Assembly: GCA_023231475.1 (NCBI GenBank) | Contig: JALJEE010002501.1 | Coordinates: forward strand, 1 to 32,274 | DNA from: Seison nebaliae | Taxonomy: Eukaryota | Length of the DNA: 32,274 nt | Direction of reading: 5' to 3' | In this document: positions 718-31,629 of the stretch, one piece after another | Layout of the letters: every line of letters begins with the position of its first letter | How positions within the stretch are numbered: position 1 is the first letter of the stretch | Program-made: the position numbers and the translations under genes | The notes under the pieces: generated by a model | Seen by the model: the letters and a program-made list of their open reading frames with translations, nothing else | Told to the model about the DNA's origin: nothing | The model's database searches: none

Positions 718-1582
718 ATGACAATGAAGAAAAAACTGAAGAAAAAACAAAAAATTTTTCGACCGTATCAACCACCAGATTTTTTAGATGTTAAACAATT
801 ACGAGCTGAATTGCCAGAATATCGTATTGGAGATCAAGTTAGAATTTCAATTTGTTTTCGACATGTTACATTTATTTTATACGTAAGTTAGTTAATCAAT
901 TGAAAAAATTTCCGATAAATCACCGAGATGTAGACGAAGAAACAAGAGTACATACTTCCTTTCTCAACCGATTTACGTCTGAAGAACTGAAGGATATCAA
1001 ATATGTCTTCGATATGTTCTCTAAGGAATTTACAAAGTTTTTTTTGTTTTCTCCAACAAAGAATTCAATAGTTATTGCCAGCGAATTGACAGGACCGGAA
1101 CTTCATTTAGCACTTCAAGTTTTCAACATCAAATTATCGATCGAAAAATGTGATCAAACTGTATATCGATATATTATGGAAGAAATGGAAGATGGTCAGG
1201 GAGAGAAGGAGAAGAACAAAGTTCGATCATTCGATTTCGAGTGTTTTCTCAGCATTCTCATGGAAATGCAAGAAATGTCTGTGAACGATTTTCATGATGA
1301 TATTATTTCCGTGTTCAATCAAATGCTATCATGTTACTAATTCTTCTTCCCAATTTTCACCTGAATTTTCAACCAGTTGTTAATGATAAATCGATATCGA
1401 AGAAGGATTATTTGCAAGTTGAAGACTTTTCTGAAATGATGGCAGATCTGAATATTCCTATCTCCAAAAGGCGTTTGGAAGAAATGTTTCGATATGCCAA
1501 CAGCAAAGGAAATGGGAAATTGACTCGAGATGAATTTATTGACTGTATGAATTCCACAGACTTATATTATCAACACTTATAA
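718..1582 (+). CDS. EF-hand (centrin/calmodulin-like) protein, spliced
   Basis: ATG 718; introns 838..887 (GTTAGA..AAG) and 1333..1376 (GTTACT..CAG) join the ORFs in frame. EF-hand-like segments are FDMFSK..ELTGPEL, FDFECFLSIL and MFRYANSKGNGKLTRDEFIDCM. Confidence 0.8.
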
Positions 1583-1934
1583 CAAGGAATCTTAATGAAG
1601 AAATATCTTCATTGAAAAATAAAGAACAACATTTGCATTTCTGTTTGTTTATGCCTATCAGTTTTTCCTTCTTCAAATAGATTGAAATAAAAAAATGGAA
1701 ATTAAAAGTTGAAGTTATGAGTCTAATATTATTTCGTTGTAGAATAAAAAGAATAAAATGAAGATTATTGGTCAAAAGAAACTATGTCTAATTTATTGAA
1801 ATGAAATTTTTAAGAAGTTTTCTTGTCAAATATTTCCATTTATTGTGCCAAAATAGATTGGATTATTATGAGAAAAAATATTTTTAAATATTTAGCCTGA
1901 AAGAATTTGAAAGTTGAAATAATAATCATCAAAT

Positions 1935-3672
1935 ATGAATTTGTATCAGACAGTTGAGAATCCGATTCTATTGTTGGGTGCTGGTGGATTAGGATGTCAA
2001 GTATTGAACAGTTTGGTTATTCCTTCTTTTATTTCTCCATTTATATTGTTTATGTCGTATAGGCGTCTTTACAATGTCGTAATATTCATGTGATTGATAT
2101 GGATACTATTGAGATAACGAATTTGAATCGACAATTTTTATTTGAGTTCATTTTTTCCACATCAATTTACCTGACGTTTTAGTGAGGAAGATATTGGAGA
2201 ATCTAAAGCAGTAATTTGTGCTAAAAAAATCCACGAAAGTTTTCCTAAATGTCAAATAACTCCGTTAGTTTCCTAAATTCATAACGATTGTTCATTCGAT
2301 TTCAGACATTTTAAACAAATTGAAGAATTTTCAAGAGAATTTTATAAAAGTTTTCTTTCTCAAATATTCTCTTTTCCAATGATTGCTAAAGTGATCTCTT
2401 AGAGTTCGATGTTGTTATTTGTGGTTTGGATTCGGTCTCCGCTAGAAGATGGATCAATTCTACATTGGTATCTAATTTCTGTTATCCTATTATTCAATTA
2501 GATTTACAAACAGATATCTCTAGTTGAATATGATGATAATAAGGCTGTAATCAAATCGTCAATCATACCATTGATTGATGGTGGAACTGAGGCATATGAT
2601 GGAAATGTACGAGTGATTATTCCAACAATAACGGCCTGTATCGAATGCTCTTTAGATCTCTTTCCCTCAAAAGTTCACTTTCATTTAATCAATTTTAATT
2701 AAATTAAAATTTTGTAGAAAACTTTTCCATTGTGTACAATAGCTAATCGTCCAAGAAATGCGGAACATTGTATTGAATATGTCAAATTAATTTTATGGAA
2801 TAAAGAACAACCATTTGGCAGTTGATTCTCTTCTCATTATTTATCTTCCTTCAACATTTAATGAAGATATAGAATTAGATATTGATGACGTCGATCATTT
2901 GGAATGGATTGAAAATGAAGCGAGAAAACGAGCGGAATCATTTCATATAAAAGGAGTCAATTCTCATTTGACAAAAACAGTTTTAAGAAATATTTTACCT
3001 GCCATCGCTACAACAAATTCGTTTATTGCGAATGTGTGTGCTATCGAATGTTATAAATTATTAAAAAAGTTATTTTATATTTCTTTTCCAAATGAAAATT
3101 TGATGAATGGAAAAAGAATGGATAATATCGATAATTGGCTCCAAATCAATAACGTCGATCAATTTTATTTATACGTATGGAAATATGACAAAGAAGTTTG
3201 TCATAATCAGATTTGAAATAATTTCCTTTTTAGGATGATTGTTTGGTTTGTGGTGAACAAATTTCTTATATGAACGCTGACCTCCATTGGACATTACAAG
3301 AATTGATCGATCACATGAAAACTAATGACAAATTGTTTCCAAATTTTTCTTATATCTATTCTTCATTTTACTTTATTTTTTATCTATCGCTAAAGAAATT
3401 TATCAGATCCAAGTCTAACAACGAAAACGACAAGAAAAGATGTAGAAAATTCCCATCAGACTCTATACATGAAACGACCGATTTTTCTCCGTCGTGCAAC
3501 CGAAGCCAATTTGTCGAAAACATTAAATCGTTTTTCGATTATTTTCTATTCATCTAATTTCCTTCTTTGTACGATAGAATTAAAAGTGACGGAGGATAAC
3601 ATCTTATATATTACTGATGATTCGATATCTGGAACGTTACAATTACAATTGAAATTTAACTGTTTTGATTAA
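1935..3672 (+). CDS. UBA3: NEDD8-activating enzyme E1 catalytic subunit, 12 exons
   Basis: Motifs [54 protein letters not shown], catalytic [27 protein letters not shown] and NLSKTL. Introns 2016-2062, 2146-2182, 2264-2305, 2350-2402, 2468-2513, 2673-2717, 2821-2866, 3069-3116, 3196-3233, 3335-3395 and 3530-3577 give one continuous frame. Confidence 0.95.
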
Positions 3673-3824
3673 TGTTATTCTCATAAGAATTATATCAAAT
3701 TCGAAAGATTAAAATTTACAGATTTAAAAATAAATAATTAATTTTCTGAAATTTTATTCGAAAATATCATTTCTTCATAAAATCTTCGAAACAATAAATT
3801 TAATAGTTATTAACATTCCCCAAT

Positions 3825-4632
3825 TTAAGTAGCTGGGGCTGGTTGTTCTGCTCGTAATTCCGTCTTGATTTCAGGCTTCGTCTCTGGCTTCGGTTCGATA
3901 ATTTGTACATTATCTGGAAGAGCTTCTTTCGGCCCTGATCGTCCATTAGTATCATGTTTCAACATAATTTTCACTTTAATTCCAATTACTCCTTGTCTCA
4001 AGAGAACATGACGAACAGCTTCGTCGATGTAACTTCGAGTTGAGTTACCTGAATGTATCATAAGACCTTCACCAAATTTCGTCGATTTAGCACGTTGTCC
4101 TCTCAACTTTCCACTTACAATAATTTCGCATCCTTGAGCTCCTGATTCCATGATGTATCGTAGAACACCATAACATGCACGTCGGACAGCTAATCCTCCA
4201 AGTAATTTGTATCTTAAAGATTCAGCTTGTGTTGCTGCACATAACCCACGAATTGCCAATTTGGCAGCATACAACTAATAATAATAAATCGAATAAAAAT
4301 ATTTTCGAAAACAATTGTAAACTTGTAATTTGCCATCTGGAAAATTAAATCTTTGTTGAACTAATGCAGTTAATTCTTTAATTCGATGTCCTTGTTCTCC
4401 TAGAACGGCTTGAGTTCTCGTTGCTCGAATGATGATTTCAGTAACTGTTGGCGTTTGTCGCACTTCCAAATTGGAATAACCATCTTCGGCCAATTCACGT
4501 GCGAAGAACTCTCCTAATTCAGCTCGCAGCAAACCATATTGAACGGCCTGAAATAGAATGGAAAAACGATATTCCGATTCTTAAAAACAGAAAGATACAA
4601 ACAGCTTTTTTCACGGAAATCTTCTTGTCCAT
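3825..4632 (-). CDS. RPS3: 40S ribosomal protein S3 (uS3), 3 exons
   Basis: Motifs [49 protein letters not shown] and [13 protein letters not shown] 4632; introns 4602..4548 (GTTTGT..CAG) and 4322..4275 (GTTTAC..TAG). Confidence 0.98.
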
Positions 4633-5024
4633 GTTGATTGAAAATTGAGATGTTGTTGTAAATTATTTCAAATTTTAAATTTACAAAACTATCTTTTTCC
4701 ATGTAATAAAGTGAAAAATATAAATTCATTTAGATGTTTATTCTTCATTTAAATATTCAGCTTCTCCGAAAAATTGGTAAATATTTGAAAGAACACAAAA
4801 ATTGAAGAATTTTCAATATATTAAATTGAAAGGATTGTTTTGGTTTTTGCGAATAAATTTTTCTGAATTCTAATGTTGCACAACTTGCCATCTTTATTGA
4901 AGGGGGAAAATATGGAATAAATAATTTAAAATGTGGTTGAAAGTAAGAATGAAATTTGTGAGGAGGAGATGAGTATCTTACAAAATGAGAATTATATGAA
5001 ATATTTTGATCTATTAAAATTGAT

Positions 5025-7124
5025 TTATTGATCAACAAGTGACAAAGACAAAATTTTCTTTAAAGTTTCATCTTCTTCACTTTCGATTTTCATCTTCTCC
5101 TTCTCATGAGTCTCCAAACTAAGTTTGATTGCTTCTTGTAAATCCGTGTCAACATCATTCGACACTTGAGTGATAGTCTGCACAAATTCTGGCTCTAATT
5201 TGAGACTTTCCTCGATCGCTTTTTGCATTTCATTCTGAAATTTTGGAAGAGATAAATTATTTGTATCATTCAACATTTCTTTCAATGTCAATTTTTCTGA
5301 ATATAAATTGTCACCCAAATCATCTAATATTCAAATAAAATTTTCTCTTCACACAAATGAATAATAACCATGAAGTTCTTCTTCAAAATCTAATTCTTCT
5401 TCAATATCTTCTTGAACATTAAATGCTTTGAACAAGTTTTCAATATGTTCCATTTCACTATCTTTCACTACATACGACGAATCAATTTCAAACACTTCAT
5501 CCGATATTTCACAGACCTCCTAAATAGAGAAGATAAATTAATTTTTCTTATAAACATTTTGTTAATGAAACCTTTTCCTTATTATAGTTTACGTATTGTG
5601 CGGCGGTGCGAGATGAATTGACATTTTCAAAAGAGAATTTTATTTTAATGATTTTATACAATGGAACTTCTAATAAAGATAAATGATTAGATTTATGAAT
5701 AAAAGTGAAAACTAACCAATTTTTAATGGAAATCCATGAGGCAATTTCTCTTCGATGAAATCACATAACTTCTTCACATAAGTATTGGTATGAGATAAGA
5801 GATGGAGAATGGGAAGAATATGTTTCTCAAATTTCAATGGATAATCATTATACAACCAAAGATTAGTGCGAACACTAAACGATTTGGAAGATTGATCTAA
5901 CGATTTCGTGGTGAAACCATTCTTCCCTTTCGATAATGCATCGAAATATTCGGTTTGATTTAGACCGTCAATTTTATCCGGTTTCTCTACTTCTTCCTTC
6001 TCCTCTTCCTCTTCTCCATTGTTGTTTGTCGTTTTCTCAATATGTTGTATATACTTCTCGTCATCGAACAATTTCATTTTGTCTTCATTCTCCAAATTCA
6101 TATTCGTCTTCAATTTATTTAATTCTAATTTCTCTTCTGATGTACATCCTAATGAATTGAACATAGTTGATGCTTGTGCTGCAAAATTCTTATGTTGCTT
6201 CTTCCAAAATTCTTTTCTCTCATTCGACAAATGAGACATGATGGAACGATGAATAATTGTACAATTATTGGCCGTATATACTTCACAATCGAAGTCGTCG
6301 ACCACTTCAGATCGGTCGACTCTCCAGCCATAGAATCCGGATTTGCATCTTTGGAATTGGATAGACTCCGTATCGAGATATGTCGTCGTCATTGGAGTAG
6401 TTAAACGGAAGAGAATATTGGCATCACTTATCGCAAATTTACCAAATAAATTCTCAGTATTCTCCTTCTCATTCTCTTCCATCTTTTCTGTCGATCGACT
6501 ATCGGGCGATGATTGATCTGTCGTCATTCGAATCCGATGTTCTGTCAATTGTTTCTTTTCATGATTAACCGTTTTGATGAGAATATCATTTTCTTCTACT
6601 GTCACATAAATGGAATTGAGACCACGTTGCCAAACGCCATTCTCATTGCCACATAACGTCCAATCGATTCGAACTTTTCTACCTTTCTTATAAATTTTAT
6701 AACAATCATTCGGACAATATTTTGATATGAATGGCAACCAAGAACTAAATTCCATTTTCATTTCCACATAATAATCAGCTGCTTGTTCCAAATGATTAAC
6801 TAATTTAGGAAATTCATTTTCTATCGATAACATTCTCTGATAATCTCGCCATTGATGAATGAGTCGAATCATTTCTCGATTTTTTGACATAACTGCAGCT
6901 TGTACACATGACCAGCCGAAACCGTCACAAGTTTTCGCATTCGCTCCATTATTCAATAAATCTCTCGCACATTCCATTCGAGCTAATCGTGCAGCTATGT
7001 GTAACGGAGTGCGACCAAATCGGTCCTCTTCATTCACCAGTTGTGGAAAACGATTAATATAAGTAGAGAGAGTCGCTGGTTTATCATCCCAAACTAATCG
7101 GTGGAATGTTTCAGGTGCCGGCAT
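5025..7124 (-). CDS. ANKRD13: Ankyrin repeat domain-containing protein 13 (ANK + GPCR-chaperone domain + UIMs), 4 exons
   Basis: Ankyrin GRTPLHIAA; family motifs DYYVEMKMEFSSWLP..CPNDCYKIYKKG..VRID.TL and LPHGFPLKIEVPLY; C-terminal UIMs EMQKAIEESL, DLQEAIKLSL and TLKKILSLSL. Introns 5716..5670, 5571..5520 and 5368..5324. Confidence 0.92.
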
Positions 7125-7692
7125 ATTAGTTCGGGAATTATATTTACGTATTCTCACTACTATTCTCTAACTGTTTTTTGTGATAAATAAGATTTATGTA
7201 AAATTAGATAAGTCGAAAGCTTTCGATTCGATTTACTTACTTCAAACAACCCACCAACTAATCGACAATAATTCCACAGTATCGAAAGAGCAAAAACAAT
7301 CTATTCAGTTATTAATATATCCGATTATTTATATAACTTAATTGATGGTGTTGTGATTGATAAAATGAATTTACCACATAGATACTGACCAGAAATATAT
7401 AAAGGAGAGAAGTAAAATCGAAAAACGAAAAAAAATTGTAAAAATTGTCATAAAAAAAAAGGAAAATTTATTTTCTTTTGTTAAGTCAAAAATGAATGAA
7501 TATAATGTTATTGAATTTTCTATTAGTTAAGTGTTTCGCATGCAGATAAGTAGGAAGATAAAATAATCTGCTTATCATCCATCAAAAATAGTCATACTTT
7601 ATGATCAACTGAAAGAAGAAGAGTCATTTGGAAATTTTGATTAAAAATTAGATCAATTAAAATTCAGTTCAATTTCAATTAGAAAGCGAACA

Positions 7693-9690
7693 ATGACGAA
7701 ACATATTTCAACTAATCCTTACTCGTCATATACTAATGGTTCAGTCGTTGATAACGTATCTTATGTGGAAGCTACAGAGAGAGGTGATTTTGCATGCAGC
7801 AAATCAGAAGATGCTCTTCGACGATTTACTTCGGGTGGATCTTCGGTGGAGTTTCATGATCATAATATTCATGACACCGTTGCTAGTGAGCTACATGACC
7901 TTGTTTACTCCGAAGCCGATCCTTTATGTTTAGAGCAGACCATAAAAAAGATCGTTCAAAGGAAACAGGTGTTGATAGTCGACGATTCTTATTCGAAATT
8001 TGATACTACTTGTTTTGATTTTCATTCAAATTCTTCAAAACTTACTTTCTATATAGTTATAAGCAATGAAACTCTAAAATTATTGAAAACGAAACTTTAT
8101 GAGAAATTAATTTCCGAATTAATTAAAGGTCGATGTAATAGAGAACAGATCTTATCGAAACGTTCAGTCAGAAAGCGTATCGAAACAATTGTCGACGATC
8201 ATTATGGTCAATTGTGCAGTCGTTAGTTGTTGAGAATAAGAAAAAATGTCTTTATTATTTAAGATCCATGTATTGATAAGGAACATATGAAAGAATTAAA
8301 TATGCAATGCGCTGCCGATTTCTTAAATCTTGCTAAGAAGAATGGAGCTGCTTTACTTATACAGAAGAATTGGAGGAAACATTTAGTTCAATTTCTTCTA
8401 TACAAAAATTTCTCGATAATAAACTTCTGATAATTTAGATTTCAAAATGGTACCGGAATATGAAGAAGGCTTCAATTCGAATTCAAGCATGGTGGCGAGG
8501 TATTATGGTTAGGAATCATGATAAATTTTAAATATGAGACAAAGAATCATTTGTTAGATAAGACATCATATGGTGATTCTGCTAGATATTGGCAATGAAG
8601 CTATTGGTTAACGATTTGACTTATTTTGAAAAAGATTAATGAATTAAATTTTAGAGAATGATGTTTCATTAACTCAAAATTTACAGGAATTTCAAAAGAA
8701 TAATTTTCTTACCGATACACGTCTTGTACATACAACTCGAAAAGGAACCGTTACTTTATACCATATCCATTTAGTGACATTAGCATCGGTGAGTCAATTA
8801 TTAAGAGATCCATTACTAGGTGCCAAAACTGCTGATGATGCTAAAGGAAAAGTTTTAATTTTTATGAAAATTTGAGTAAAACATATGTCATTAGATATGT
8901 TTTCGAGCACCACATATTCCTAAAAAAATCATGGAAACTTTATTTGATTTCATGTATGGATATCGAGTAAATATAAATCTTTTGTGGTTGGAGGATTATT
9001 TGAGTGCTGCTAGAGATATCGGTTTTAAAGAACTGGAAAACATTTGTTGTGACTTATTACAGGTCAATCATTTTTCTAAATTATTATCCTTCAGCAAATT
9101 AATCATGTTATTAGGAGAATGCAGCCGAAAGAGCATTTGTTGAGGAGAGGACGAAGGTAGTCCAATGCACTGATTTGCCCCCATTAGACACTTATGATAT
9201 GTTGACAGCAATAGCGAATGAAGGATTAATGAATTTTTCGAAATTCTCATCTAAATTTCGAGATCTTACACCTCGCGATGTACGTCGATTATTAGCGTCT
9301 GATGAATTAACTGTAAAGTTATTGAAATTCTTATTAAGAAGAAACTAATTTAAATCATTCCAATTTAGAGATGAATTTGAAGTGTTCCGTGCAGCTAATC
9401 GATGGTATTCTTATGATTTTAAGACGCGTGAATTACATATTCCTGATGTATTCATGTCGATCAGATGGCGTAACTTGCCACCTTGGGAGATAAGGAAGTG
9501 TGTTCACCAATTACCGGTTATGATGAAGAATAGACGATTGGCGTATGTGATTACTGAAGCTCATTGGTATTCATTCTATAAACATTATGAGGTGTTCCAC
9601 CCACAACTCAGATTAGTTGCTGATCCACAACGTCACGGAATGCAAGAACAGGAAGATGATGGAAGATGTGTCGAGAAATGTATTTTATAG
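7693..9690 (+). CDS. IQ-motif + BTB + BACK domain protein without Kelch repeats, about 9 exons
   Basis: The spliced frame gives IQ motifs AALLIQKNWRKHL and ASIRIQAWWRGIMIR, a BTB domain (NFLTDTRL..YHIHLVTLASVSQLLR..METLFDFMYG..YLSAARDIGFKELENICC) and a BACK domain (FRDLTPRDVRRLLASDELTVKDEFEVFRAANRW). Introns 8012-8056, 8222-8263, 8386-8438, 8508-8557, 8607-8654, 8852-8894, 9063-9114 and 9318-9368. The start codon is uncertain. Confidence 0.85.
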
Positions 9691-9932
9691 AAACGACCTA
9701 ATTAATTGCAGAGATTGTTCTCCTCCTTCGTGTTAAACATCAGATTTCTTCTTTAATGAATGATTATCGAAATAAATTGATTTCATGTTATTATGATTTG
9801 CCATTTTAAACAATCTATATATCAGATAATTGGAAAATCAAAATTTTCTCATTCCAATCCATTCGAATTTTCTCAGAAATTATTTCAATAACTCAAATCA
9901 CAGTAACAGTAAAATATTCGTCTTTCCCAAAC

Positions 9933-10178
9933 ATGATACTGAAAATTATAGTACTTTTTTGTATTATCCAAATTGTTACGGTTAACGCACAAACTTTCCA
10001 TTATACATCTGGATGGGGAGGCAAACGGGCGTACTGGAATACAGATGGCAGGAAACTATCATCGGATTTGAGAACATTATGCGCTTTATGGAAGCAATTT
10101 GTCTTCATATCAGATATGGCGCCATTGTGGAATGAGAAAACGGTTCGTTCAGTTGCACGTATATGTAAGAAAATTTGA
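9933..10178 (+). CDS. Corazonin/GnRH/AKH-family neuropeptide precursor; predicted mature peptide pQTFHYTSGWG-amide
   Basis: A 19-aa signal peptide ending VNA is followed directly by QTFHYTSGWG-G-KR (amidation Gly plus dibasic site). The QTFxYxxGW pattern matches corazonin (pQTFQYSRGWTNamide). Confidence 0.92.
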   Translation: MILKIIVLFCIIQIVTVNAQTFHYTSGWGGKRAYWNTDGRKLSSDLRTLCALWKQFVFISDMAPLWNEKTVRSVARICKKI

Positions 10179-15741: not shown

Positions 15742-15858
15742 GTTAGAGAACTTATACTTTATCTTCAAATTATTTAAACGGTAGAACATCAGTTCAAATA
15801 TTTAAAGGCGAAGATATCTTCATATCAAAAATTAACCGCTTAAAACAACTTTCTAACA

Positions 15859-15890
15859 TAATAATATAATATATATATATATATATAATA
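15859..15890. repeat. (AT)n microsatellite with imperfect left flank
   Basis: taataatataatatatatatatatatata read directly from the sequence. Confidence 0.8.
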
Positions 15891-18800
15891 AGACGGTCTT
15901 GCATAATATTCCTGACGTTAAACGAGATCTGATTATTTTATGAACGAATCTTAATCAGAAGTCAGTTACTTCCTAATTTAATAGATGTGATAATTACGAG
16001 TAAATAAAATATTTCGTCGATCTTATGACATTCGATATTATCTCTGGTCGTCTTCCCACCAGATAGAACAATCTTATTTGGATAAGTAGTTATCCACGTA
16101 ATTTATGCAGTAGTTATGTTTCATTAAGTAATAGGAAATGGAAATTAATAATTTTCTGGCGGTAACAAATAAAGTTTATTATTTTCGTTTATTAGTTAGA
16201 ATTTCCGTCGATTTATCTGATTTTCATAAGGAACTAACGGAAATAGAGTCGATAATAAAGAGAAAAAAGTTTAATGTCTATTTAGTATGGATATTCATCC
16301 ACAATAAAACATTATCTAACAATTATCAGGTAATAAAGTTAAAAGAAACAAAAATGTAGACTTAAGTCTACTAGAAGTTTAAAAAAAAAGAATTTAGTTT
16401 TAATAATATAGTTTAATATTTACATTGATATAATACATAATAATAATATTACATACCTAATATACATTGACCACTTTCAATCTTTATAGTTTCTCATTCA
16501 CTTTATTATCGTCATTACGCATCTAGTGGTATTGTGAATTGCTTGCTAATCCAACATGTATATTAATATATTAGTATCAACTATTATTTAGTATATTACT
16601 CATTCCTTATGATAAAAAAATGAAATTTATTTATAACTTTAAATTTTAAAAAAATATATAATGCAAAATCTTTTTAACCTGGAATCTAGATGATGAACTA
16701 CATTTTATAGTTGAAATTCGAACGATTTGCGTGGGATCCAGAAAAGTGGATTTATGACGATATATGTTGAAAATAGATGGTTTATTGTATTGTAGATAAT
16801 GTATTTGATTTGTCACATAATTTAATGTCAGATATCATTTTATAAACTAAAAAGCTTTCGAATATTATGTAATTATTGACGGAAATAAAGATAAATATCA
16901 TAGAGTTGCATCTAATTTATTTACCTGATAAATATGCTATGCATGTCACGAAGAACAAGAATAAAAGTTTTACTTATCAAGTATAATCGGAGCTCTGTTT
17001 TGTTATTTTTGACAATTAACATCATTCTTTTTAAGAAAATATTTTGGAAAATAATATTCGAAGGAAAACATCAATTCACATTATCAAGTGGTCCGTTAGT
17101 GATACATAGGTTTTATCTTGTTTTATCGAACAATATATCATTTCTGGTTGTTAAAATTCGATTAGCATATTGATTCTATAGATAAAGAATAAATAGAAAC
17201 GATGCACATTATAGGTATGAAATAACGAAATTAAATTTCATAGCAAACATTGTGGATTCGGTTGCAACGAATTTGTTTTTTACGTTAATTATGCTCTCTA
17301 CTCTTTTGAAGATTTTAATCTACAATGAGATAATGGAGATATAGAAATTGACAGAAGGCCTTAGTGGTAAATATTATTAACAAAACGAACTTACAATTGT
17401 TAGAAATCATTTCAGATTTCTTCAATTTTTGCTTCTTCTTTCAAATATAACTTTCTTATCATAAAGAAAAAGTAAAATACATTTATGCAAACAATTTTTT
17501 TATGTGACGCGTCATGTTATCAAGATTAATGCAAAATTTTTTTTTCTCCGAATTTGAGAATAAGATCTAACATAGCAATTATCTGCTTAAAAGATTATTG
17601 CAAATAAAAACACCATTACTTTTTAGTTCCGCTCTATAGATATTATAATGTGATTTCTATTTTGCATCCTCTTTTCTGTCGGCAAATTACCGGAATTCAC
17701 TTTGGGAAATCATAAAATACTTTCCGCCATTTCTCTTCTTTCTTAGCGCTGAAATCTCTTTTTAGGAAAACTTTTTTAATTTTTTCCCTTATTCGTTTTG
17801 GAAACATTGAAAATAGTTTTTAACGATTTAACTTTAAATCAAAATCTTATTATATGTTTCAAAGTATATGAGGTAAATATATATAAAGTATATTAACATC
17901 AGCCGAACTTTAAAATTGTGCCCAAATGCGGATAGTCATAGAAATATTGTTAGGCTTTTTTTATTATTCACTTCACTCACTACTGGTTCACAATTTTTAA
18001 TAAGTTTTGAAATTAATTCAAGTTAATTAGTATTTTCTTTGTTTTTATAAAAAAAGCAACGAAACAAGAAGTAAATGAATGAATATTTTAAAAAGTATAA
18101 TAAGGAAATATTAGGATAAATTATACTGAACAAAATTCATTTGATTAATGGGAAACGTTCCCTTGTGACTTATATTAAATCTCTTAGGTTTATATATTAA
18201 TCCTTCGCAAATAACTATAAAGCACTTTCTCGAATTTGCTTATTATTCTATTTTTGTAATGATAATCTATAATAATAAACTAGGATTTATGTAGATCAGA
18301 AAATTAATTATTAGGGAAATTGAATTTTTTTTAAGAATTAGAGTAGCTCTTAAATTGATTGAATAGAAAATATTATTGATATTTATTGCCAAAAAACAAC
18401 TCAGCGCTTTTTTTCTTGCATTGCAAGAATCGATTCTTAATAAATTTTAAGAATGGAGAAATTTGTTAAACATTTGATGTACTATTAATTTTCTTCAGCG
18501 AAAGAAACCATTTTTCATAACTTTTTATCGATAAAAATGTATTATAATTTGTAATTATGGATATTATGTTTTTTGATTGATTGCCAACGCATCTTAAGAT
18601 GTAGTTGAGCATTATTGAGTTAAATGATACTTTCCAATATGCCCTATCACTCAACATTAAATTAAACATCAAGTTCTCATTTGAAACATCTGGTAACTGT
18701 TGATGTGTGTGGGGAGAGAAAAGAAGAATTATTTCATAGAGCATTTGAATAATGTTCAGATGGTATAAAGAGATGTAAAGGATGATGGATTTGATGAATA

Positions 18801-20619
18801 TCATAAGAATAAAATTTGAAATTATTCGTCCGATCAATAACTTATCAATCATTTTGCACTGTTTAATCTTACTGTGAATTTCATTCACAATCAATATGCT
18901 TTATCTATTTCGTATGCATCTCTAATCTGATATTCCTTCCATCATAGGTCAATGAACATAAGACACCGAATTAAATAACTTGCTGTAAAAAAATCTAAAA
19001 AAAATATAATTTACGGACATTAATTTTCTTTTCAATCATAAATTATTTAAACATTCCCTCATTCTATCGAATTTTACATTAATTTTCAATTCATTTAAAG
19101 TAAAATTAACTCTTAAAATTTACCGCTCGTCTGTTTCAAGTTCAAAATTTTGTGCGGTTCTCTCGTCTCATAAATGATGTACAAATTGAGAATGAAACAC
19201 AGAGTATATTGGTCAAGATAAATGATATAGATCTGTGTAGTCCTTGATGAGATGGGAATTAAGAAAATCATTCTAACGGAATATAAGTGGAATCTACGAC
19301 GTTGAATTCTTTCACCTTTTACGGAGGGAAAATAGATGAAATTATCATGGAAATTTATGCAATAGTTAATAAAGACGAATGTCATCCATCAATAGTGTCG
19401 ATAAAAATATTTCATTATTATTTTACCCATCCGGCCACCTAACCATTTTTCAACTTCACTCTATTTTTATTCCAATTGTTCATAGTTGTAGGTGTAGATT
19501 TGTGGATGGAACGCCGATATGTAATGCGAGAAAAATAGAAGATATTTAAGACAAAATAAATAAATTTTATGAAGAAGATATATAGGAGAATTAGAAGAGT
19601 ATTCACAATTCGGCAGAGTAGAAAAGAAATAAAAAGCAAAAGAAGACGGTTCATTTTTCTCGGGTCATTGATAGAATTCTGTCAATATTTCTTCCCAACT
19701 TATTCTATTTGAATATCCCTATAATTACTTATCATAAATATTGGGTTTTTTGATCAAACCTATTTCTCAAGAGAGGCTGTTTTCAAAGAAAATACTTTTT
19801 GTCAATAGTAAATGATAGAGATCAGACTGCAAATTCTGTAATATGTGCATTCTCTTGTAAATTTCCTCCTTAGACTAAGTAGCTCCTTCCGATAATTTAA
19901 ATATGTGTTATTTCTCTTCGAATACCCATTCTCGTGAATAAACTAAGCTTTACATAATAATAATAATTGTCCACATTCCTCTAATCTTTCCTGGTGTATA
20001 GACCTTTCCTGGGAGTACTCCGAACCATTTAAAGGGAAATAAAAATAAAACTACTCAGACTTTCCGTCAATAAGAGGTTTAATTCTGTCAACTGAAAACA
20101 CATCATCTACGTAACGTAGAATATCGATCGGGAGATGATAGATAGGGGGATTATTATGATTAAAATTAGAAAAGAAAAATACGAATTATTGAATGTTTTA
20201 CAACTTTTTCCAAAATAATACTACTTTTAAGTCGAGGAAACGAGCTAATTATACATGAAGGAATTGAAACAAGGAGAATTGTAAGTAGTTTCATAAGTAG
20301 TTTCGTGCTAAAAGAGAAAGATTGATTGACATTAAGAAATAATGATGTAGGCGAATTGGTATCCGATGATTAAGTAAAAGGAGAAAAACTGGAGATTTGT
20401 CTAAAAGGAAATTGTTAGATTTCTTAATTTCATATAATATGGAAGTATCATGAATGTTTGTTGGCACTCATCATATTGGTACTAATATGGAAAGTAGAAT
20501 ATTTTATCATCTAATTTCTTTTTGTTGAATATCTAAAAGAAATTAACAATATTATTCTGATATTACATTCGCAAATTTTATCTATCTTCATCATCTTCTT
20601 CTTTTTATTTTGCGTCCAG

Positions 20620-23495: not shown

Positions 23496-25075
23496 TCAGA
23501 AGGTTTCAGCTCCCAAAAATTGACGAGTAGCTTCATATGTTCCATAACTGATGCTGACTGCTGGTGCAACTTTGAGGAAATTGGGAACCATACCACGATA
23601 CAATCCACGTAATCCATATACACGATATATTTCACGAAGTATATTAACTGCTTGAGAGTTAATTCTTCGTTTTCTTTCGAAAGAATTCGTTGAGTTCATT
23701 AATAATCTCCCATAATTAATAGGTTGTTTCCAAAGGAATGAAGAATTGTATGGACGAATATCTGCTTGCATTCGAGTTCGAATTAAAGATAAAGGATAAG
23801 AGATCAACATTCCCGCTGTCGTACTACATATCCCACAAGTGAATAGAATTGGCATTGGTAATTGTTCATCTCTCGACATCGACAATGCTTTATAAGCAGA
23901 TTTCTTCAATGTTTCATAGACAGCCAGATCCGTACCGGCATAAGGAAGTATTCCCATAATATTAGGAATATATCCTTTATAGAAAGCAAGGAAATTCTCT
24001 TTCAAATATATTTGTTTAGCACAATCGAACATGCCTTTGAAGTCACCAGTTCTGCTTAATGCTAATCGCGTTTTTACTACCTAACAAATGAATTGATTTA
24101 TTTGTAAATAAAAAAAATTATTTTAAATAAACTTCTAAAGGATAGATGATTGATTGGGAACATGCACCAGCAAATGACCCACAAATAAATCGTTCATACA
24201 TTTTTATATCTTTCAAATTCTTATCAGCACAAATAATTCGTTTAAACTAAAAATGAATATTAATAAATGATTTTGAGGAAAAAGAAATGAGATATAACTT
24301 GATCATAAAACATAAATTTCATTGCCGTTTCTGGTGCAACTTTGATGACGTTTATACCGTTTCCTCTCCACAATGATGAGTATCCTCCTTCGTTGACGAG
24401 GTAACGAAATCCTCCGACGATGCTGATTCGTTCACGATTTCCCACTGCTTGCATAACTAATTTCAATCGATCGAGAGGTGCAGTAGATGTTCGTGAAAGT
24501 GCTCCAGCAACAGCTCCCGCAGCCAAATGTTTCCACCAATCACCCCCAACAATTTCGGGTGTCGTCGAATAAGACGAGCAATTTCTCCAAAAATCAATAA
24601 TATCAGAAATATCATTGACAGGAACAAGGAGAAAATGTTGTCGCCATTCATCTCGATCGATGTGTAAAGTTCCATCTTTATCAACACGTTTAATTAATTG
24701 ATTAACTTCCACGTCATTGACATTGAATCCGATTCTTTCAAAGAAACTCTTCAATTCATTTTCATCAATTTTTCCATCTTCATTCTGATCGATTGTATGG
24801 AAAACCAGATCTAATGTTTTGTGACGTTCAATAGCATATGCGAAAAATTCAGAAAATGTCAATTCGTGAGATTTGGAAAGAAGATTTCCAGATTTAACGA
24901 ACAATTCGGCATGATGTCTCTTACCGGGAAGACTAAGTGTATCATAAGCCGTCAAAATATCATTCACATCGATTTTTCCATCTTTATCGAAATCGAGACT
25001 TTCGAATATTCGACGAATGACTTGTTTATCTTCACTGTACAACGGCAATACTTCTCTCTCATGTTGATGCATCAC
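23496..25075 (-). CDS. SLC25A25: Calcium-binding mitochondrial ATP-Mg/Pi carrier (SCaMC, SLC25A23/24/25 family), 3 exons
   Basis: EF hands DFDKDGKID, DQNEDGKID and DKDGTLHID; carrier motifs WWKHLAAGAVAGALSRTSTAPLDRLK, YPLEVVKTRL and YPLSLIRTRMQ. Introns 24298..24247 and 24132..24081. The symbol denotes the family, not one-to-one orthology. Confidence 0.93.
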
Positions 25076-25492
25076 CAGTTAATGAAAGAAATGATGACGA
25101 TGACATTTGTCATTGGACGAATAATTTTCGATTTGAATCAAATTTCAAATTCGCAGAAAGGAAGAATAGATTATTGATAAAAGAAAGGGATTCTTTTCTT
25201 TAATGAAACAAAAAGAGATAATGAAAATTTATAAAATAAAATTTTATTGACGAATTAATGGAAATGTTGCGTAAATAGCGATTTTGCAGTTGGCAGAAAC
25301 AAATGATGGTTTTCAACGTTACATTATCCTTTGAATAATAATAATCATTAATATTTGGAAATTTGAAAAATGTGTCAAGAATAAATCTCATCATTTCAAT
25401 TCTTTCATATTTAAATTGTTAGTTCAATTCATTCAGATACATGTGACATATTATATTCAATCGAATATTTAAAAATATCTTTGTTGGAAATT

Positions 25493-28145
25493 ATGAGACG
25501 AAAGAAACAGAACATTTTGAAGGAGAATGATCGAATTCAGAAAAAGATATTACCGAAGAAGGAGAATCCTTTCGATCAGAAAATTATGAAAGTGAAAAAG
25601 AATATTCTCAATCAGAATAAAGGGAAATATTTAACGGGAAAACGAATCGTCAATCGTCTTGATCAACAAGATAAACGGAAGAAATTATTATTGAATGACA
25701 TGAAGAAAGAAACGAAGCAAAATCAATTAATCGATAAAAGATACGCAGAAAAGAATCAGAAAATGAATTTGGAGGAGAAGATGTTGGGAAGATTGAAAGT
25801 GGAGAGAATGCGTCAAATTGAAGAGGAAGAGAAGAAAATGGAGAATTTGGAGAAGAAAAATGACTTTAATTTTCTCAAAAATCTCAATGATCAAAATGAT
25901 GATATTGATGATGGAATCAATTTGAATGAGGAAGAAGACGAAAGAGAAAGTTTATTTATGAGAAACAATTTCTTTGTTTCCACTGATGATGGTGATGATG
26001 GTGAAGAAAAACGTCAATCTCGTGAAGAATGGTTACAAGAGATGATGATGGAATCGAAAAAAGAGAAATTAGATAAGAAAAAGGAAGCGGAAAAAATAGC
26101 TGAAACAATAAAAGATTTGAACGAGAAATGGAAAGAAATTACAACAATTCCCAATGTAGTTATTCCGAGAAAGATGAATATGGATGGAATTGATAATCCT
26201 GATGATTATGATAAGAATTATGTATTATTAGGTGTCGATCCATCGACTCATTCGGGAACATCGAAATCATTAAACGATAATGAATTGGCATTAGAAAAGT
26301 TTCATGAATTGAATCGATTGGAAAATGAGAGAATGTTAAAGAATAAGAGAAGGAAGGAACCGAAATCTCTGGAAGATCTCTCATCCGATTACGATAAGTA
26401 TGTGGATGTGAAGAAAAAGATATCGAAGAAAGATTTAAAGAAAATGAGATATGAATCAGATATCGTCAATTGTCAATATGAAGAATTGGAAGAGAATGAC
26501 GAAGAAGTGATTGATGAAACTAATTTAATAGATGAAGAAGAAATTTTAAAAAGAAGAAATTTGAAGAATTCAGAAGAAGATGATCAATTATATGAAGGCA
26601 ATTTGAAAGAAACTCTAAAAGAATCAAAACTTCTTCCATTTGTCATCCATCTGCCACGAACTGAAAATCAATTGAATATTTTATTAAAAATGTTCCCGAA
26701 TGAACATTCAGTAATTTATGACCGTCTCATTAATTCCAATCATCCACGTCTCTCTGAGAAGAATAAAGATGAATTAAAAATATTCATGTCTGACGTCTTC
26801 TTTCCATTCTTTTTCAATTGTTCCAAATATTTAGAAACGAAAAAATCAATAAATTGTGCTTATCTGATGTTATTCCGTTTATCGAGAATGTTCCCAGAAA
26901 CATCGAGTAAATTATTCATTCATCAATTCCGTCAATTACATTACGAAATATTTGGTCGAAGTAAAACGAATTCGGGTAATATTCAATCGACACATTTACT
27001 TCGAATGATCGTTCCGATTGAACAATCAACAAATGTCACAAACGAATATCAGCAAGATGTTACAATTCGATCATTGATCAATGAAGAATTTGAATTGAAT
27101 ACAGAATTGATCAATAAAAAAATTATAAAGAATTCAAAAAACATCTTTCTTATTTTCAGAACCGTCACAACTGTCTTTCCCATAATGGCTCGACGGCATT
27201 TGATCGTTTATCCATTTATCTTATTCTATATTTCTCTTATGGAAATATTGGATCAGTTTGTGGAAAAGAATGATGATTCTTTAATCGTCGCCATTAAATT
27301 TATTCATCTTTTCATTCATCATTATTTATCAAGTACCAAATGGTATGTTCCCGAATTAATAACTTTGACATTGGCATCACTTCGAAAAATGGATGATGAT
27401 CGTTTAAAAACTCATTATTTTCATTTTAATGTTTTAATGAAAGATTTATTGAGATTGAATGAAATTTATTTAAATATTGGGAATGCTAGTCAAGAAATCA
27501 CTTGGGCATCAACTGGCACTTCATGGAAACCGGCAATGTTGAACGTTTTACATCCTCATTATAAGACTATTCAGTCCATCATCCAATTGTTATCGACGGA
27601 AGATAATTTGACAAAAGAGAAATATTCAGATTTAGTTACATCAATTTGTACTTAAATAATAAAAACTATAAAATTTTTTAATTTATTTCAGAAAGAAAAT
27701 TGTGAGAAGTGGCTGAAATTCTACGATGTCCAACAAAAAGAAATTTGTCGAACTAAATTGAAACTGAAAACAAAGAGTTTGTACGAACAAAAATCGCTAA
27801 TTTTATTCGAACCAAAACTCGATAGAAAGTTTCAATACTTCTCTTCTCAATTCTGTTCCATAAAGTATTTTTAGGAAAAATCGATTTGATGGTCAAAAAC
27901 GATTGACGAAAGAAGAAGAAATGAAGGAGAAATTGGAGAATATGAAGAACTTGAAGAATTCTTTGAAGAAGGAAAAGAAATCAGCCGCAAGAGAACTTCG
28001 TCGTGATATGCAAGTTGTGGCTGGAGAGAAGATGAAGGCAATGATGGAATCGGATGCTAAACGGAAGAGAAAATTGAAAGAGATTCATGGACAATTGGCA
28101 ACTCAAGAGGGCGACTTCCGTCGCATAAAAAGACGTGCTAAATAA
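25493..28145 (+). CDS. NOP14: Nucleolar protein 14 (SSU processome), 3 exons
   Basis: Motifs NPFD, IDKRYAE..EEKML.R, MESKKEK, LPFVI, NHPRLSEKNK, VPELI, FEPKL, LKKEKKSAARELRRD and LATQEG. Introns 27635..27691 and 27829..27874. Confidence 0.92.
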
Positions 28146-28258
28146 ATATTTAACTCTTTATATTTCAATTTTTCATTTCCTTCAAATTGTTTTGGAAAAT
28201 ATATAAAAAATTTTGATGAATTTTTAAAATTATATTATTTGTAAAATAAAAATGAAAA

Positions 28259-29458
28259 TTAGATGAAAAATTCTGAAGATTTTGTTAAGAATCGAATGAA
28301 TAAAATGAGTTCGGTAATTAAGAGAATGAGAATGAAATAAATAGATTTTGAGATTGAAAGAAGAATAATGAAATGGAAAGAAATATAATAAAGAACAGAA
28401 GAATAAGTGAAAAAGAAATTGAATTGATTAATTACTTGGATCATTTGAGAATAGAGAAAAAATAATTTATTTTCATCTAAATGATCGAAGAGAAATTTAG
28501 AGAAAGTTAAATGAGTATAAGAGATTTGAGATGGTATAAGGAAACAATTTGAAATTATTTCATTCACTTTCAATATCCTCAAATAAATTATTAAACTGAT
28601 TAGAAATAACGAATGTTGAAGTGGTTTCAATTCATTAATTGAACGTCTTAAAAATCGTGCTAATCGATGCATACTAGTTGTTGGGTATGAAAATAATTTA
28701 CTGATAATTTTCTGGTAAAGAAATCGATGAAGTGGTGACTGAAATCGTTTCTTATCAATTGGCAATGTGTGTATAAATGAAATGAAAGAAAGGAGAAGCG
28801 ACAGAATCAATTTGTTTGACAAGAATGATAATTCTGGAGGAAAATTCTGCTTCATAATTTCGAAAATGTTATAACTCAATTTCATCTCATTATTTTCAAT
28901 GAGAAATTTATTTTCATTCTTTTGAGACGGAATATATCGATAAATCGAATCGATATTATTTCCTTCTCCTTCATTCAAATGATTGACATTCAGCAAATAA
29001 CGATCATTCAATAATTGCATGTAACGATTATGAGAATCGTCGTGATCCAATTCTGATAATAATAATTTCTCTTTCTTCTCAACAAATTTCCATAACAAAT
29101 CATAATGATAATGAGATTTATTGAGTTCTTGCAAAATCTTATAATTGTTATGAAGAGTAGTAAAATAATATTGAATGTTTTCTTTGAAATGACGTTCCTT
29201 TTCATAATTATAAAGGATTAACGGACACAAAGGAATATTGGAATAATCAATTTGCACGAGAATATGTTTATATTCAATCTCTTTCTCCAAATGATAATGG
29301 ATACTATCCACATACAAATGGTTGATTAAATCATATTGCTTGTTATAGACACAGCGAAACTCTTCCAATCTATCCACCAACAACAACAACGTTAAAAGAC
29401 ATCCGATTACTGTCAATATTGGAAGATAATTCAAAAAAATTTTTTTATACTTCTTCAT
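28259..29458 (-). CDS. Unrecognised 399-aa predicted membrane protein (intronless ORF)
   Basis: A 1.2-kb ATG-initiated ORF is unlikely by chance in DNA this AT-rich. It has an N-terminal hydrophobic helix and several hydrophobic segments in the C-terminal half. Confidence 0.7.
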   Translation of the reverse strand: MKKYKKIFLNYLPILTVIGCLLTLLLLVDRLEEFRCVYNKQYDLINHLYVDSIHYHLEKEIEYKHILVQIDYSNIPLCPLILYNYEKERHFKENIQYYFTTLHNNYKILQELNKSHYHYDLLWKFVEKKEKLLLSELDHDDSHNRYMQLLNDRYLLNVNHLNEGEGNNIDSIYRYIPSQKNENKFLIENNEMKLSYNIFEIMKQNFPPELSFLSNKLILSLLLSFISFIHTLPIDKKRFQSPLHRFLYQKIISKLFSYPTTSMHRLARFLRRSINELKPLQHSLFLISLIIYLRILKVNEIISNCFLIPSQISYTHLTFSKFLFDHLDENKLFFLYSQMIQVINQFNFFFTYSSVLYYISFHFIILLSISKSIYFILILLITELILFIRFLTKSSEFFI

Positions 29459-29558
29459 TTAATTTTCCTTACAATCTCAGTTAAGCTTAATTTGATAATC
29501 CAAAAATTCATGAAAACAGAAAATTATTTATTTATTTCAACATAAAAAATTCTACAAT

Positions 29559-29759
29559 ATTTGTATCTTCCAATTCACTGTACAAACCTCATGACTTCTC
29601 AACGGACCACTCAACAAATACGATGATAACGGGAACCCGATCCCCCCGATTCGTGTGGGCAACGGTGTACTGTCGTTACGCCTTCTTCGTTTGCTGTGAG
29701 CTGCCGGGTATAAAAAATGTTTAATATAAATAGAACGCACTTCGGGAACCATTAGAAGA
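29559..29759 (-). ncRNA. Structured H/ACA-like RNA (~200-nt branched hairpin ending in an ACA box)
   Basis: GC-rich island. The closing stem TCTTCTAAT/ATTGGAAGA is followed by T-ACA-AAT. Inner stems are CTCACAGCAAACGA/TCGTATTTGTTGAG, GGCGTAACG/CGTTGCC and GGGGA/TTCCC. The G-U wobble pairs form only on the minus strand. Confidence 0.55.
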
Positions 29760-29914
29760 AATAGAAATAAATTCATTGTTATTTAAAGTCGAATCGAAAA
29801 TTATTTTGAAAATAAGATTCATAAATAAGTAAATAATATTTGTCAATAAAAATTAAATTTTGAGGATACTTAAAAATGATTGAAGGAGTATTTATAAATC
29901 AGTACACCATGATA

Positions 29915-30205
29915 TTTTGTTAAGAGGAGAAATGAAATAGATGAAAATTTCTTAAATTTCTCATATAAATACTAATGATATTTCTCATAAGCATATCGGA
30001 ACCTGCCAATGCCAAAGAGGACGAGTTGGCAGATCCCTACTACGACTAAGAGAAATTCACAGATCACTGTCCATACATTTTTTTTTAGTATGATCCATAC
30101 TATGAGGAAGGTAACCAATACCTTTGTGGAGCATAGACCTCATATTTGAGAAACCATTTACTTTCACCTAGCTATCCTTATTGAGGTTCGTCCAGCATGC
30201 TCCAT
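29915..30205 (-). ncRNA. Structured RNA region with H/ACA-like hairpin(s)
   Basis: A 12-bp stem GGGATCTGCCAA/TTGGCAGGTTCC (2 G-U) sits inside TTTCTCTTA/TATGAGAAA, followed by ATATCA (ANANNA) and a later ACA at 29920-29918. Further stems are TGGAGCATG/TATGCTCCA, TATGAGG/CCTCATA and AAGGTA/TACCTT. Confidence 0.45.
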
Positions 30206-30530
30206 GTTATCGTCTTGGAACAATTCCCCTTATTAAATCCTTTAATCTAGAAATAAAAATAAATAATCTTTAAAATTTGCATTAAATCATAACATCATTA
30301 ACATCATTTAAAATATTTATGAATTATGAATATTGAATTAAATTATCGAAAATATGAGACATTTAAATATCATAAATAATAATAAGTAATTAGAAACTAA
30401 CGACTTTTCCATAGCATTTTTTGTATTTTTTGCACGACCAGAGATGTTCGAACTAACATCACGTACCTTAAAATAAAAAGAAAATTAAAAGATGAAGAAA
30501 AGGAATTTCATCAAGATTATTCGACAAGTA

Positions 30531-30604
30531 GAAATCAGCTAAATAAACAGCTCCTCCTGATAATTATTCGGTAGAACGAAAGTTTTAGTCGTCATCATAG
30601 AAGC
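30531..30604 (-). ncRNA. SNORD59: Box C/D snoRNA, SNORD59/snR54-like (18S Am1031 human / Am974 yeast equivalent)
   Basis: Box C ATGATGA (30598-30592); guide AACTTTCGTTCT complementary to conserved 18S AGAACGAAAGTT; D' CCGA; box D CTGA (30538-30535). It is intronic, ~68 nt upstream of the acceptor. Confidence 0.88.
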
Positions 30605-30742
30605 AGATTGAGAAGAGAAAAGATAGAAACTAACGCTCTTGACGAACATTTCTTTTGAGAAATAATCTGAAACCTAAATTAGAAATTAGATATTAGTTGA
30701 ATATGATAATATATATATATTAATCGAAAATGATGAGTAAAA

Positions 30743-30846
30743 ACAGATTTCAGAAGTGATAGCTATTTTGAGTACATGAACTCAATGAAATGAGTTTAAT
30801 ACAAGAGGTGTCAGATCTCTTATATGCTATTTCATCATTCATCTAC
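30743..30846 (-). ncRNA. Box C/D snoRNA, target not recognised
   Basis: Box C ATGATGA (30838-30832), D' CTGA (30814-30811), box D CTGA (30753-30750), terminal stem TAGAT/ATCTG and internal hairpin AACTCA/TGAGTT. It is intronic, ~76 nt upstream of the acceptor. Confidence 0.75.
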
Positions 30847-31629
30847 TAAACATAGAAGATATATAAAAAATAACTAACATTTCTTTCAAAAAACTACATC
30901 AGAAATTCAGTGGAATTTATCGGTTAATTTCGAATTCCTGAAATTGAAAGTAAAAATAAGATTATCATTATGAATCAGATAGATATAAGTATAGATCAGA
31001 TTATAAGATATAATGAATATATGTTGGAATATCTATCGTCAACGTTCTTTCATAAAGGAAGAACAGATCACATAAACATTCAATCGGATAATCTAGCGAA
31101 ACTACTAGCATTAGATAGATCATTGTAATGTATCTTCTAACGACTCTAAATTAGTTCGCATACGAATAGGAATAATCATTAACTTTATAATAGCCTGGCA
31201 CAGAACCACGAGAGACTGACTTGGCAAGAAAAACCTCAGAGACCACGAACCAAAAGATTTGTATCTTTAAAGATACACAATTTTCCTAAACGAATTTAGA
31301 AAGTAATTTAACTTTAAACTAAAAAGTTTTAAAGTTAACTGAATGACAATTGTAAAGAAATGGTCATAGAATATCGTGGAAAAATGAGTTTCATGGATAA
31401 GATAGAAAAATTATGGTCTTATAATTACTTACTCTTTATTTTGACACTTTTTAGTCATTTGAAATTCTAATTGGAAGCTTATGACGTATTGAAATACGTA
31501 ATATTATTTTCTAAAGTTTTAAAAAAATTAGGATAAAATCCAATTAGGACTTTTCGACATAAACAATTTATACAAAACGGTATTTTAGAACAAAAATTAT
31601 TTCACTTCCTATTATTCATATTAAATTAA

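What the first reader, a model, noticed from the sequence alone, without database searches (positions are those of the whole stretch)
718..31183. Shifted 5' splice-site consensus: GTT (strong form GTTAGT) instead of GTRAG
Seen: of 30 introns placed by reading frame and protein similarity in seven genes, 28 begin GTT. The exceptions are GTATCT at 2468 and GTCAAT at 9063, and none begins GTAAG/GTGAG. Positions +4 to +6 are degenerate in the 37-61-nt introns, while three longer snoRNA-host introns use GTTAGTT and the putative 4.9-kb GPCR intron uses GTTAGA. Known: animal U2-type donors have mostly A/G at +3, read by the U1 5' end ACUUAC. Inference: this lineage may have a U1 with ACUAAC, or altered U1C/LUC7/U6 recognition, that is a rewired major spliceosome in an animal.
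Basis: partly seen in the sequence, partly recalled or inferred. Interest (0 to 1): 0.88.

Follow-up and report, generated by a model that had tools for sequence, protein, structure and literature searches.

The report
Rotifer introns that start with GTT
In this stretch of DNA from Seison nebaliae, a tiny marine relative of rotifers, almost every intron starts with GTT instead of the usual animal GTA or GTG, likely because its splicing machinery reads intron starts with a changed partner base, as some amoebae do.

Summary
Confirmed. NCBI labels four window proteins as Seison nebaliae. The 23 introns that rebuild the four GenBank proteins exactly give 21 GTT. In 20 of 31 only one GT donor keeps the frame, and all 20 are GTT. 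Background T does not explain it (P ≤ 2e-6). A, G and C are all scarce at +3, and the residual G sits at +5, not +6. So +3U is selected in the normal register, best fitting an adenosine partner such as a U1 with ACUAAC. That mechanism is untested: no genome, U1, U6 or RNA junctions were available. The closest precedent is Entamoeba GUUUGU with a co-evolved U1, but most atypical-donor lineages keep a canonical U1. My ten paper searches showed no animal case. The scan noted GTT donors before, in protist DNA only. New variant of a known kind.

The parts
718..1582 (+). EF-hand protein gene; introns 838-887 (GTTAGA), 1037-1081 (GTTTTT, in-frame, unproven), 1333-1376 (GTTACT)
   Evidence: frame; Pfam EF-hand in last exon; no annotated protein retrieved
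1935..3672 (+). UBA3 gene; 11 introns: 2016-2062, 2146-2182, 2264-2305, 2350-2402, 2468-2513, 2673-2717, 2821-2866, 3069-3116, 3196-3233, 3335-3395, 3530-3577; 10 start GTT
   Evidence: spliced product identical to P0121; aligns to human UBA3 at E 1e-113
2468..2513 (+). exception: donor TTG|GTATCT (G at -1); no U12 branch motif
   Evidence: junction aligns without a gap to human UBA3
3825..4632 (-). RPS3 gene; introns 4602-4548 (GTTTGT) and 4322-4275 (GTTTAC)
   Evidence: identical to P0001; both junctions align without gaps to the 10 of 11 homologues that cover them
5025..7124 (-). ANKRD13 gene; introns 5716-5670 (GTTAGT), 5571-5520 (GTTTCA), 5368-5324 (GTTATT)
   Evidence: frame; Pfam ANKRD13_C
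7693..9690 (+). IQ-BTB-BACK gene; introns 8012-8056, 8222-8263, 8386-8438, 8508-8557, 8607-8654, 8852-8894, 9063-9114, 9318-9368; 7 of 8 start GTT
   Evidence: identical to P0122; Pfam
9063..9114 (+). exception: donor CAG|GTCAAT, with a full exonic CAG
15742..20619 (+). putative 4,878-nt intron AAG|GTTAGA ... CCAG joining an 18-codon exon to a rhodopsin-family GPCR exon; unverified, not counted among the 31
   Evidence: in-frame join; Pfam 7tm_1
23496..25072 (-). EF-hand mitochondrial carrier (SLC25A23/24/25-like) gene; introns 24298-24247 (GTTATA) and 24132-24081 (GTTTAT)
   Evidence: identical to P0123; alignment
25493..28145 (+). NOP14 gene; introns 27635-27691 (GTTACA) and 27829-27874 (GTTTCA)
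   Evidence: frame-forced; Pfam Nop14
30247..31183 (-). probable non-coding snoRNA host: candidate introns 31183-30938 (GTTAAT), 30878-30674, 30634-30467, 30401-30247 (all three GTTAGTT); a fourth GTTAGTT at 30457; not counted among the 31
   Evidence: sub-threshold C/D snoRNA matches at 30842-30747 and 30604-30550

Best explanation
In this Seison nebaliae window 29 of 31 coding-gene introns start GTT, likely because an otherwise ordinary major spliceosome uses a U1 snRNA whose base opposite intron position +3 has become A (predicted 5'-ACUAAC-3'). Shown: the donors, their normal register (residual G at +5), and scarcity of A, G and C at +3. Inferred: the shift holds genome-wide (about 0.9); U at +3 is read by an adenosine partner; that partner is U1 position 6 rather than U6 or a protein. 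In this model the very short introns are found by intron definition with only a GUU(A) core helix. Longer introns would need the full GUUAGU(U) match, and the two non-GTT donors would survive through a G at -1.
For: 29/31 GTT; 20/20 among frame-forced donors. +3 carries 0.8 bit, +5 0.2 bit, the other positions 0.06 or less. +5G is 7/31 against 7.4% background (P 0.007); +6G is 2/31, not enriched. At +3, A is 1/31 (P 6e-5) and C is 1 of 30 pyrimidines against 5-10 expected (P 1e-4 to 0.03). That pattern suits an A partner better than canonical U1 (would favour A/G) or unchanged U6 G44 (would accept C). The strong form GTTAGT is the exact complement of ACUAAC, and GTTAGTT is enriched without using annotation. 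A canonical U1 gives only the two GU pairs as a contiguous helix in 23 of 31 donors; the variant gives at least three in all 31 (partly circular). Precedent: Entamoeba U1 ACAAAC and Mastigamoeba ACGUAC (bioRxiv 10.1101/2022.06.08.495308).
Against: No Seison U1 was seen. Most lineages with atypical donors keep a canonical U1 (227 Saccharomycotina genomes, PMC10581693; Giardia, Thecamonas, Mamiellales), and Fritillaria's two U1 versions have identical 5' ends (PMC13326754). Even with the variant, mean pairing is only 5.4 of 9 and +4 splits A 14 / T 13, so U1 pairing stays weak. In the duplex-energy comparison the variant still ranks a decoy above the real donor at UBA3 3196 (1 of 7 pairs), and canonical U1 already ranks 4 of 7 correctly. 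Exons do not avoid GTT: it is the commonest Val codon, 78 GTT against 42 GTA. One 32-kb window, no RNA junctions.
Confidence: 0.45

Rival explanations
1. U1 is canonical, weakened or lost, and +3U is chosen at the hand-over to U6: either U6 G44 pairs with U as a wobble, or the ACAGAGA box has changed at that base, perhaps with divergence of SNRNP27K or METTL16.
For: +3 lies opposite U6 G44, and A or G there interact only weakly (PMC11732430 passage). Roy and Bowser note that GUUUGU pairs better with U6 ACAGA. A changed U6 box exists in C. merolae. Exonic -1G is only 8/31, so U1-type pairing is weak overall.
Against: An unchanged G44 should accept C at +3, but C is 1 of 30. The positions U6 pairs with most (+4 to +6) are the degenerate ones: 13/31 match two or more of AGT against 73% in C. 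elegans.
Confidence: 0.2
2. Both snRNAs are canonical and a diverged protein (U1C, LUC7, TIA-1/Nam8 or a Prp8-side pocket) reads or stabilises U at +3, with a tolerated pseudouridine-U mismatch as in yeast at +4 (yeast detail recalled).
For: +4 shifts in yeasts arise without snRNA change and track protein loss. Entamoeba U1C is highly diverged. Fritillaria changed U2AF and snRNA methylation.
Against: Needs a new base-specific contact that excludes A, which canonical U1 pairing should favour. No Seison splicing protein was examined.
Confidence: 0.2
3. The pattern is an artefact of gene prediction or of an unrepresentative window; true junctions use other donors.
For: No RNA junctions for these introns; the method behind the GenBank models is unknown; five GTT donors have non-GTT frame-keeping alternatives and four introns are open in frame.
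Against: 20 donors are forced by frame and all are GTT; homology fixes four more; both strands and all seven genes agree; GTTAGTT is enriched without annotation.
Confidence: 0.06
4. A canonical U1 binds one base out of step (shifted or bulged register), so the donor signal is moved by +1.
For: Proposed in this scan's earlier notes for protist GTT classes; GTT is what a +1 shift gives.
Against: A shift predicts G at +6: seen 2/31 (P 0.68). G is enriched at +5 instead, 7/31.
Confidence: 0.04
5. Selection beyond GT has relaxed and +3 simply follows the T-rich intron composition.
For: Introns are 45% T; positions +4, +6, +7 and +8 are near background.
Against: +3 is 94% T (95% CI 79-99%) while its neighbours are 32-55% T; P ≤ 2e-6.
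Confidence: 0.04
6. The introns are copies of an introner transposon with a GTT end.
For: Narrow length range of 37-61 nt.
Against: Intron interiors are no more alike than shuffles (best score 27 against 29 ± 2.5). The RPS3 introns after codons 10 and 85 match human positions as I recall them (not checked by a call).
Confidence: 0.01

Closest known systems
Entamoeba GUUUGU(U) donors with co-evolved U1 (AACAAAC); Mastigamoeba GUGCGC with U1 ACGUAC (Roy and Bowser, bioRxiv 10.1101/2022.06.08.495308)
   Same: U at +3 in nearly all donors of a U2-type system; normal register.
   Different: Entamoeba is intron-poor and strict (97-98.5% GUUUGN). This animal window is intron-dense (31 introns in 7 genes), strict only at +3, with A/T at +4 and G at +5 in 7/31. 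Its U1 is unknown.
+4A to +4U switches in Saccharomycotina linked to loss of METTL16 and SNRNP27K (PMC10581693)
   Same: Lineage-wide change of one intronic donor position.
   Different: That change is at +4 in intron-poor yeasts with unchanged U1 and U6. Here +3 changes and +4 is split 14 A / 13 T.
Non-canonical introns of the tunicate Fritillaria borealis (PMC13326754)
   Same: An animal whose major spliceosome has changed its splice-site preferences.
   Different: There the terminal dinucleotides change, through U2AF paralogues and snRNA m6A. Here GT-AG is kept and only +3 is recoded.
Standard animal U2-type donors (AG|GURAG; C. elegans 58% A at +3, PMC6140464)
   Same: GT-AG ends, residual +5G, short A/T-rich introns.
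   Different: Purine at +3 in 1 of 31 donors; the exonic AG is also weak (-2A 15/31, -1G 8/31).

Membership tests
U2-type (major) spliceosomal introns | GT...AG ends that restore a conserved reading frame | tested here: met
   for the 21 introns of UBA3, RPS3 and BTB a GT-AG placement reproduces the annotated protein
U2-type (major) spliceosomal introns | purine at +3 (GURAG consensus) | tested here: not met
   1 of 31
U2-type (major) spliceosomal introns | splicing shown in RNA and dependence on U1/U2/U6 | not testable with these tools
   no RNA junctions or snRNA genes obtained
Entamoeba-type donor/U1 co-evolution | near-universal U at +3 | tested here: met
   29 of 31; window only
Entamoeba-type donor/U1 co-evolution | strict GUUUG with low intron density | tested here: not met
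   +4T 13/31, +5G 7/31; 31 introns in 7 genes
Entamoeba-type donor/U1 co-evolution | U1 5' arm changed to complement the donor | not testable with these tools
   no genome; none in window; metagenome scan gave no U1
METTL16/SNRNP27K-loss +4U type | preference for U at +4 | tested here: inconclusive
   14 A / 13 T, near background
METTL16/SNRNP27K-loss +4U type | loss of METTL16 or SNRNP27K | not tested
Shifted-register 5' splice sites | consensus moved by +1 (G at +6) | tested here: not met
   +6G 2/31, +5G 7/31
U12-type introns (for the 2468 exception) | RTATCC donor and CCTTAAC branch site | tested here: not met
   donor GTATCTAA; no branch motif within 2 mismatches (motifs from PMC3033335)
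Introner elements | introns form a repeat family | tested here: not met

The most novel reading that the evidence does not exclude
Seison nebaliae is an intron-rich animal that has recoded the third base of nearly all its 5' splice sites from purine to U, with a matching base change in the U1 (or U6) snRNA recognition arm: donor-snRNA co-evolution across a whole animal genome, so far reported only in amoebae.
Probability: 0.5. Interest if true: 0.85.

Novelty: new variant of a known kind. Interest (0 to 1): 0.67.

Why it matters
The U1 recognition arm and the purine at donor +3 are treated as near-fixed in animals. Co-evolution of donors and snRNA has been argued to need prior intron loss (the 'coevolution' model in Roy and Bowser). 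An intron-dense animal that switched +3 across its genes would test that model directly, and would show which component (U1, U6 or a protein) sets +3. The test is cheap: one snRNA search and one logo. Practically, gene finders trained on other animals will mis-model this lineage.

Tried and rejected
Whole-genome and RNA-read tests were not available, so there is no genome-wide logo and no junction reads. Rfam on the whole window at E 0.1 gave 0 hits; a narrower scan gave only sub-threshold C/D matches. No U1 5' motif in the window beyond chance. A metagenome scan for a U1-like pattern with A opposite +3 gave 42 loci. None looked like U1 by eye, and 33 of the 42 (identical repeats dropped) had no Rfam hit; this says nothing about Seison. 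Exonic avoidance of GTT was tested and not found. A conserved branch-point position was not evident: 14 of 31 introns have a TRAY motif 8-35 nt from the end, at scattered positions. A small minus-strand ORF at 519-145 was tried as a hold-out gene. Its first candidate intron (424-377) starts GTTATT, but the model is unsupported and the second candidate is not needed, so both were dropped from all final counts (one search prints 31/33 with them, 29/31 without). One search used mis-set coordinates and is superseded. Shifted register, introner origin and U12 status of the 2468 intron were rejected.
Full report
Source. No whole genome is held for the window. The last RPS3 exon matched NCBI protein SNEBB_005905 of Seison nebaliae on a contig of 32,274 bases. 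UBA3, the IQ-BTB-BACK protein and the carrier gave SNEBB_005904, _005907 and _005909. Seisonidea belong to the rotifer-acanthocephalan clade; the species has a compact genome of about 46 Mb and 32-34% GC (PMC8351084, passages).

Observation. An exhaustive spliced alignment of three GenBank proteins to the window gave one path each: RPS3 2 introns, UBA3 11, BTB 8. Adding the carrier (identical to P0123) and frame-based models for the EF-hand, ANKRD13 and NOP14 genes gives 31 introns of 37-61 nt in seven genes, all CDSs open. 29 of 31 start GTT; GTATCT (2468) and GTCAAT (9063) are the exceptions; none starts GTRAG. In the four annotated genes alone it is 21 of 23.

Is it circular? For each intron I listed every GT-AG pair within 45 nt that keeps the protein open. 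In 20 of 31 only one donor position works, and all 20 are GTT; none is forced to a non-GTT donor (P 1e-7 to 5e-6). Two of the 20 (3530, 8012) are also open if retained. Four more GTT donors (2016, 3069, 3196, 4602) have non-GTT alternatives that would delete 4-7 residues from, or rewrite, stretches aligned closely to human UBA3 or to RPS3 homologues; I judged this by eye. Five remain open to a non-GTT reading. Counting all five against the claim, 24/31 is still above background (P 2e-5 to 0.006). Without annotation, GTTAGTT occurs 11 times against 3.4 expected, six of them at proposed donors, while GTRAGT is at chance. The first part (1 of 400) of a published transcript-to-genome table shows intron-sized gaps of about 42-92 nt on other contigs of this species, so introns of this size are spliced. 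It gives no bases, and RNA support for these particular junctions remains open.

Shape of the signal. Information against intron background: +3 0.8 bit, +4 0.06, +5 0.2, +6 0.05. +5G is modestly enriched (7/31, P 0.007) and +6G is not, which argues for the normal register. Exonic -1G is 8/31; both non-GTT donors have it (P about 0.05 on the 33-intron set). A at +3 is rarer than chance and so is C. Intron interiors are not a repeat family. The longer candidates use the fuller form (GTTAGTT three times in the probable snoRNA host, GTTAGA in the putative GPCR intron). Their boundaries are not frame-fixed, a fourth host intron starts GTTAAT, and only two of the three GTTAGTT introns hold snoRNA-like matches.

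Mechanism. Relaxed selection cannot exclude A in an A/T-rich genome, so something likely prefers U. Intron +3 faces U1 position 6 first (derived from the U1 register) and U6 G44 later. Canonical U1 would favour A/G and unchanged G44 would accept C; both are scarce. An adenosine partner fits best, and U1 ACUAAC is the simplest version, with precedent in Entamoeba and Mastigamoeba. Against this, most lineages with odd donors keep canonical U1, pairing stays weak even with the variant, the energy comparison of real and decoy donors is mixed, and exons do not avoid GTT. I put U1 change at 0.45, U6-level read-out at 0.2, protein read-out at 0.2, and artefact, shifted register, drift or introner together at 0.15. 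No snRNA or splicing protein of Seison was seen: none in the window and none in a metagenome scan.

What is known. Ten paper searches were run, on GTT/GTTAGT/GUUUGU donors, Seison, rotifers, Acanthocephala, Pomphorhynchus and U1 compensation. Their listings showed no report of dominant +3U donors in any animal. The library is incomplete, logos in figures cannot be read, and I obtained no donor data for other rotifers, so the trait could be shared or already visible in unpublished logos. What I saw of each paper: Roy and Bowser preprint, abstract, introduction, parts 1-2 of 3 of the results and one discussion section (its supplements are closed); PMC13326754, abstract and part 1 of 2 of the discussion; PMC8351084, passages, a word search of both supplements (no hits) and part 1 of supplement 2; PMC10581693, PMC11732430, PMC6140464, PMC1557818, PMC3033335, PMC3464624 and PMC10639083, passages; PMC10599564, passages and the supplement list; PMC10125929 and PMC11347168, passages and supplement rows. 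Earlier notes of this scan report GTT donors in protist DNA (Bonamia, a foraminifer-like protist and others). They gave the shifted-register lead, which I tested here and rejected for this window. No note concerned Seison or an animal with this trait.

Verdict. It works like the Entamoeba donor shift but is not a member of that type on strictness or intron density, and the defining U1 change is untested. New variant of a known kind; interest 0.67.

Noticed in passing
window 9933-10178 (+): Intronless 81-aa secreted-type precursor: hydrophobic leader, then QTFHYTSGWG-GKR. It looks like a GnRH/AKH/corazonin-family amidated neuropeptide (family resemblance recalled; no Pfam hit).
   Followed up: partly
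window 31250-29980 (-): Probable non-coding snoRNA host transcript: two introns with C/D boxes and guide-like matches to SNORD59 and snoR1 below threshold. 29980-30246 folds into long hairpins (z -2.66) without a convincing Rfam match.
   Followed up: partly
window 31261-31276: Perfect 16-bp palindrome just upstream of the putative host transcript; possibly a promoter element (seen).
   Followed up: no
window 2264-2305 and 2468-2513 (+): Human and mouse UBA3 each carry a minor (U12) intron (supplement rows of PMC11347168). I could not map which one. From recalled human exon sizes it would be the position of 2264-2305, which here starts GTTAGT, suggesting a minor-to-major conversion; the GTATCT exception at 2468 could instead be the relic.
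   Followed up: partly
window 4118(-), 7886(+), 8789(+), 24924(-), 27702(+), 883(+): Canonical-looking GTRAG sites sit unused in sense exons (five, against one exonic GTTAG). A perfect GTAAGT at 883 has no frame-keeping acceptor closer than 110 nt.
   Followed up: partly
window 20620-23052 (+): Rhodopsin-family GPCR with a very long Asn/Ser-rich insertion of several hundred residues before the last helices.
   Followed up: no
window 28259-29458 (-): Intronless 399-codon ORF with an N-terminal hydrophobic stretch and no Pfam hit; a short GC-richer ORF at 29552-29782 lies upstream.
   Followed up: no
window 519-145 (-): Possible small two-exon gene with an intron 424-377 starting GTTATT; unsupported by homology.
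   Followed up: partly
window 23496-25072 (-): The Ca-binding mitochondrial carrier has a roughly 21-residue insertion in the third repeat and an 11-residue deletion before the carrier domain, relative to eight homologues.
   Followed up: no
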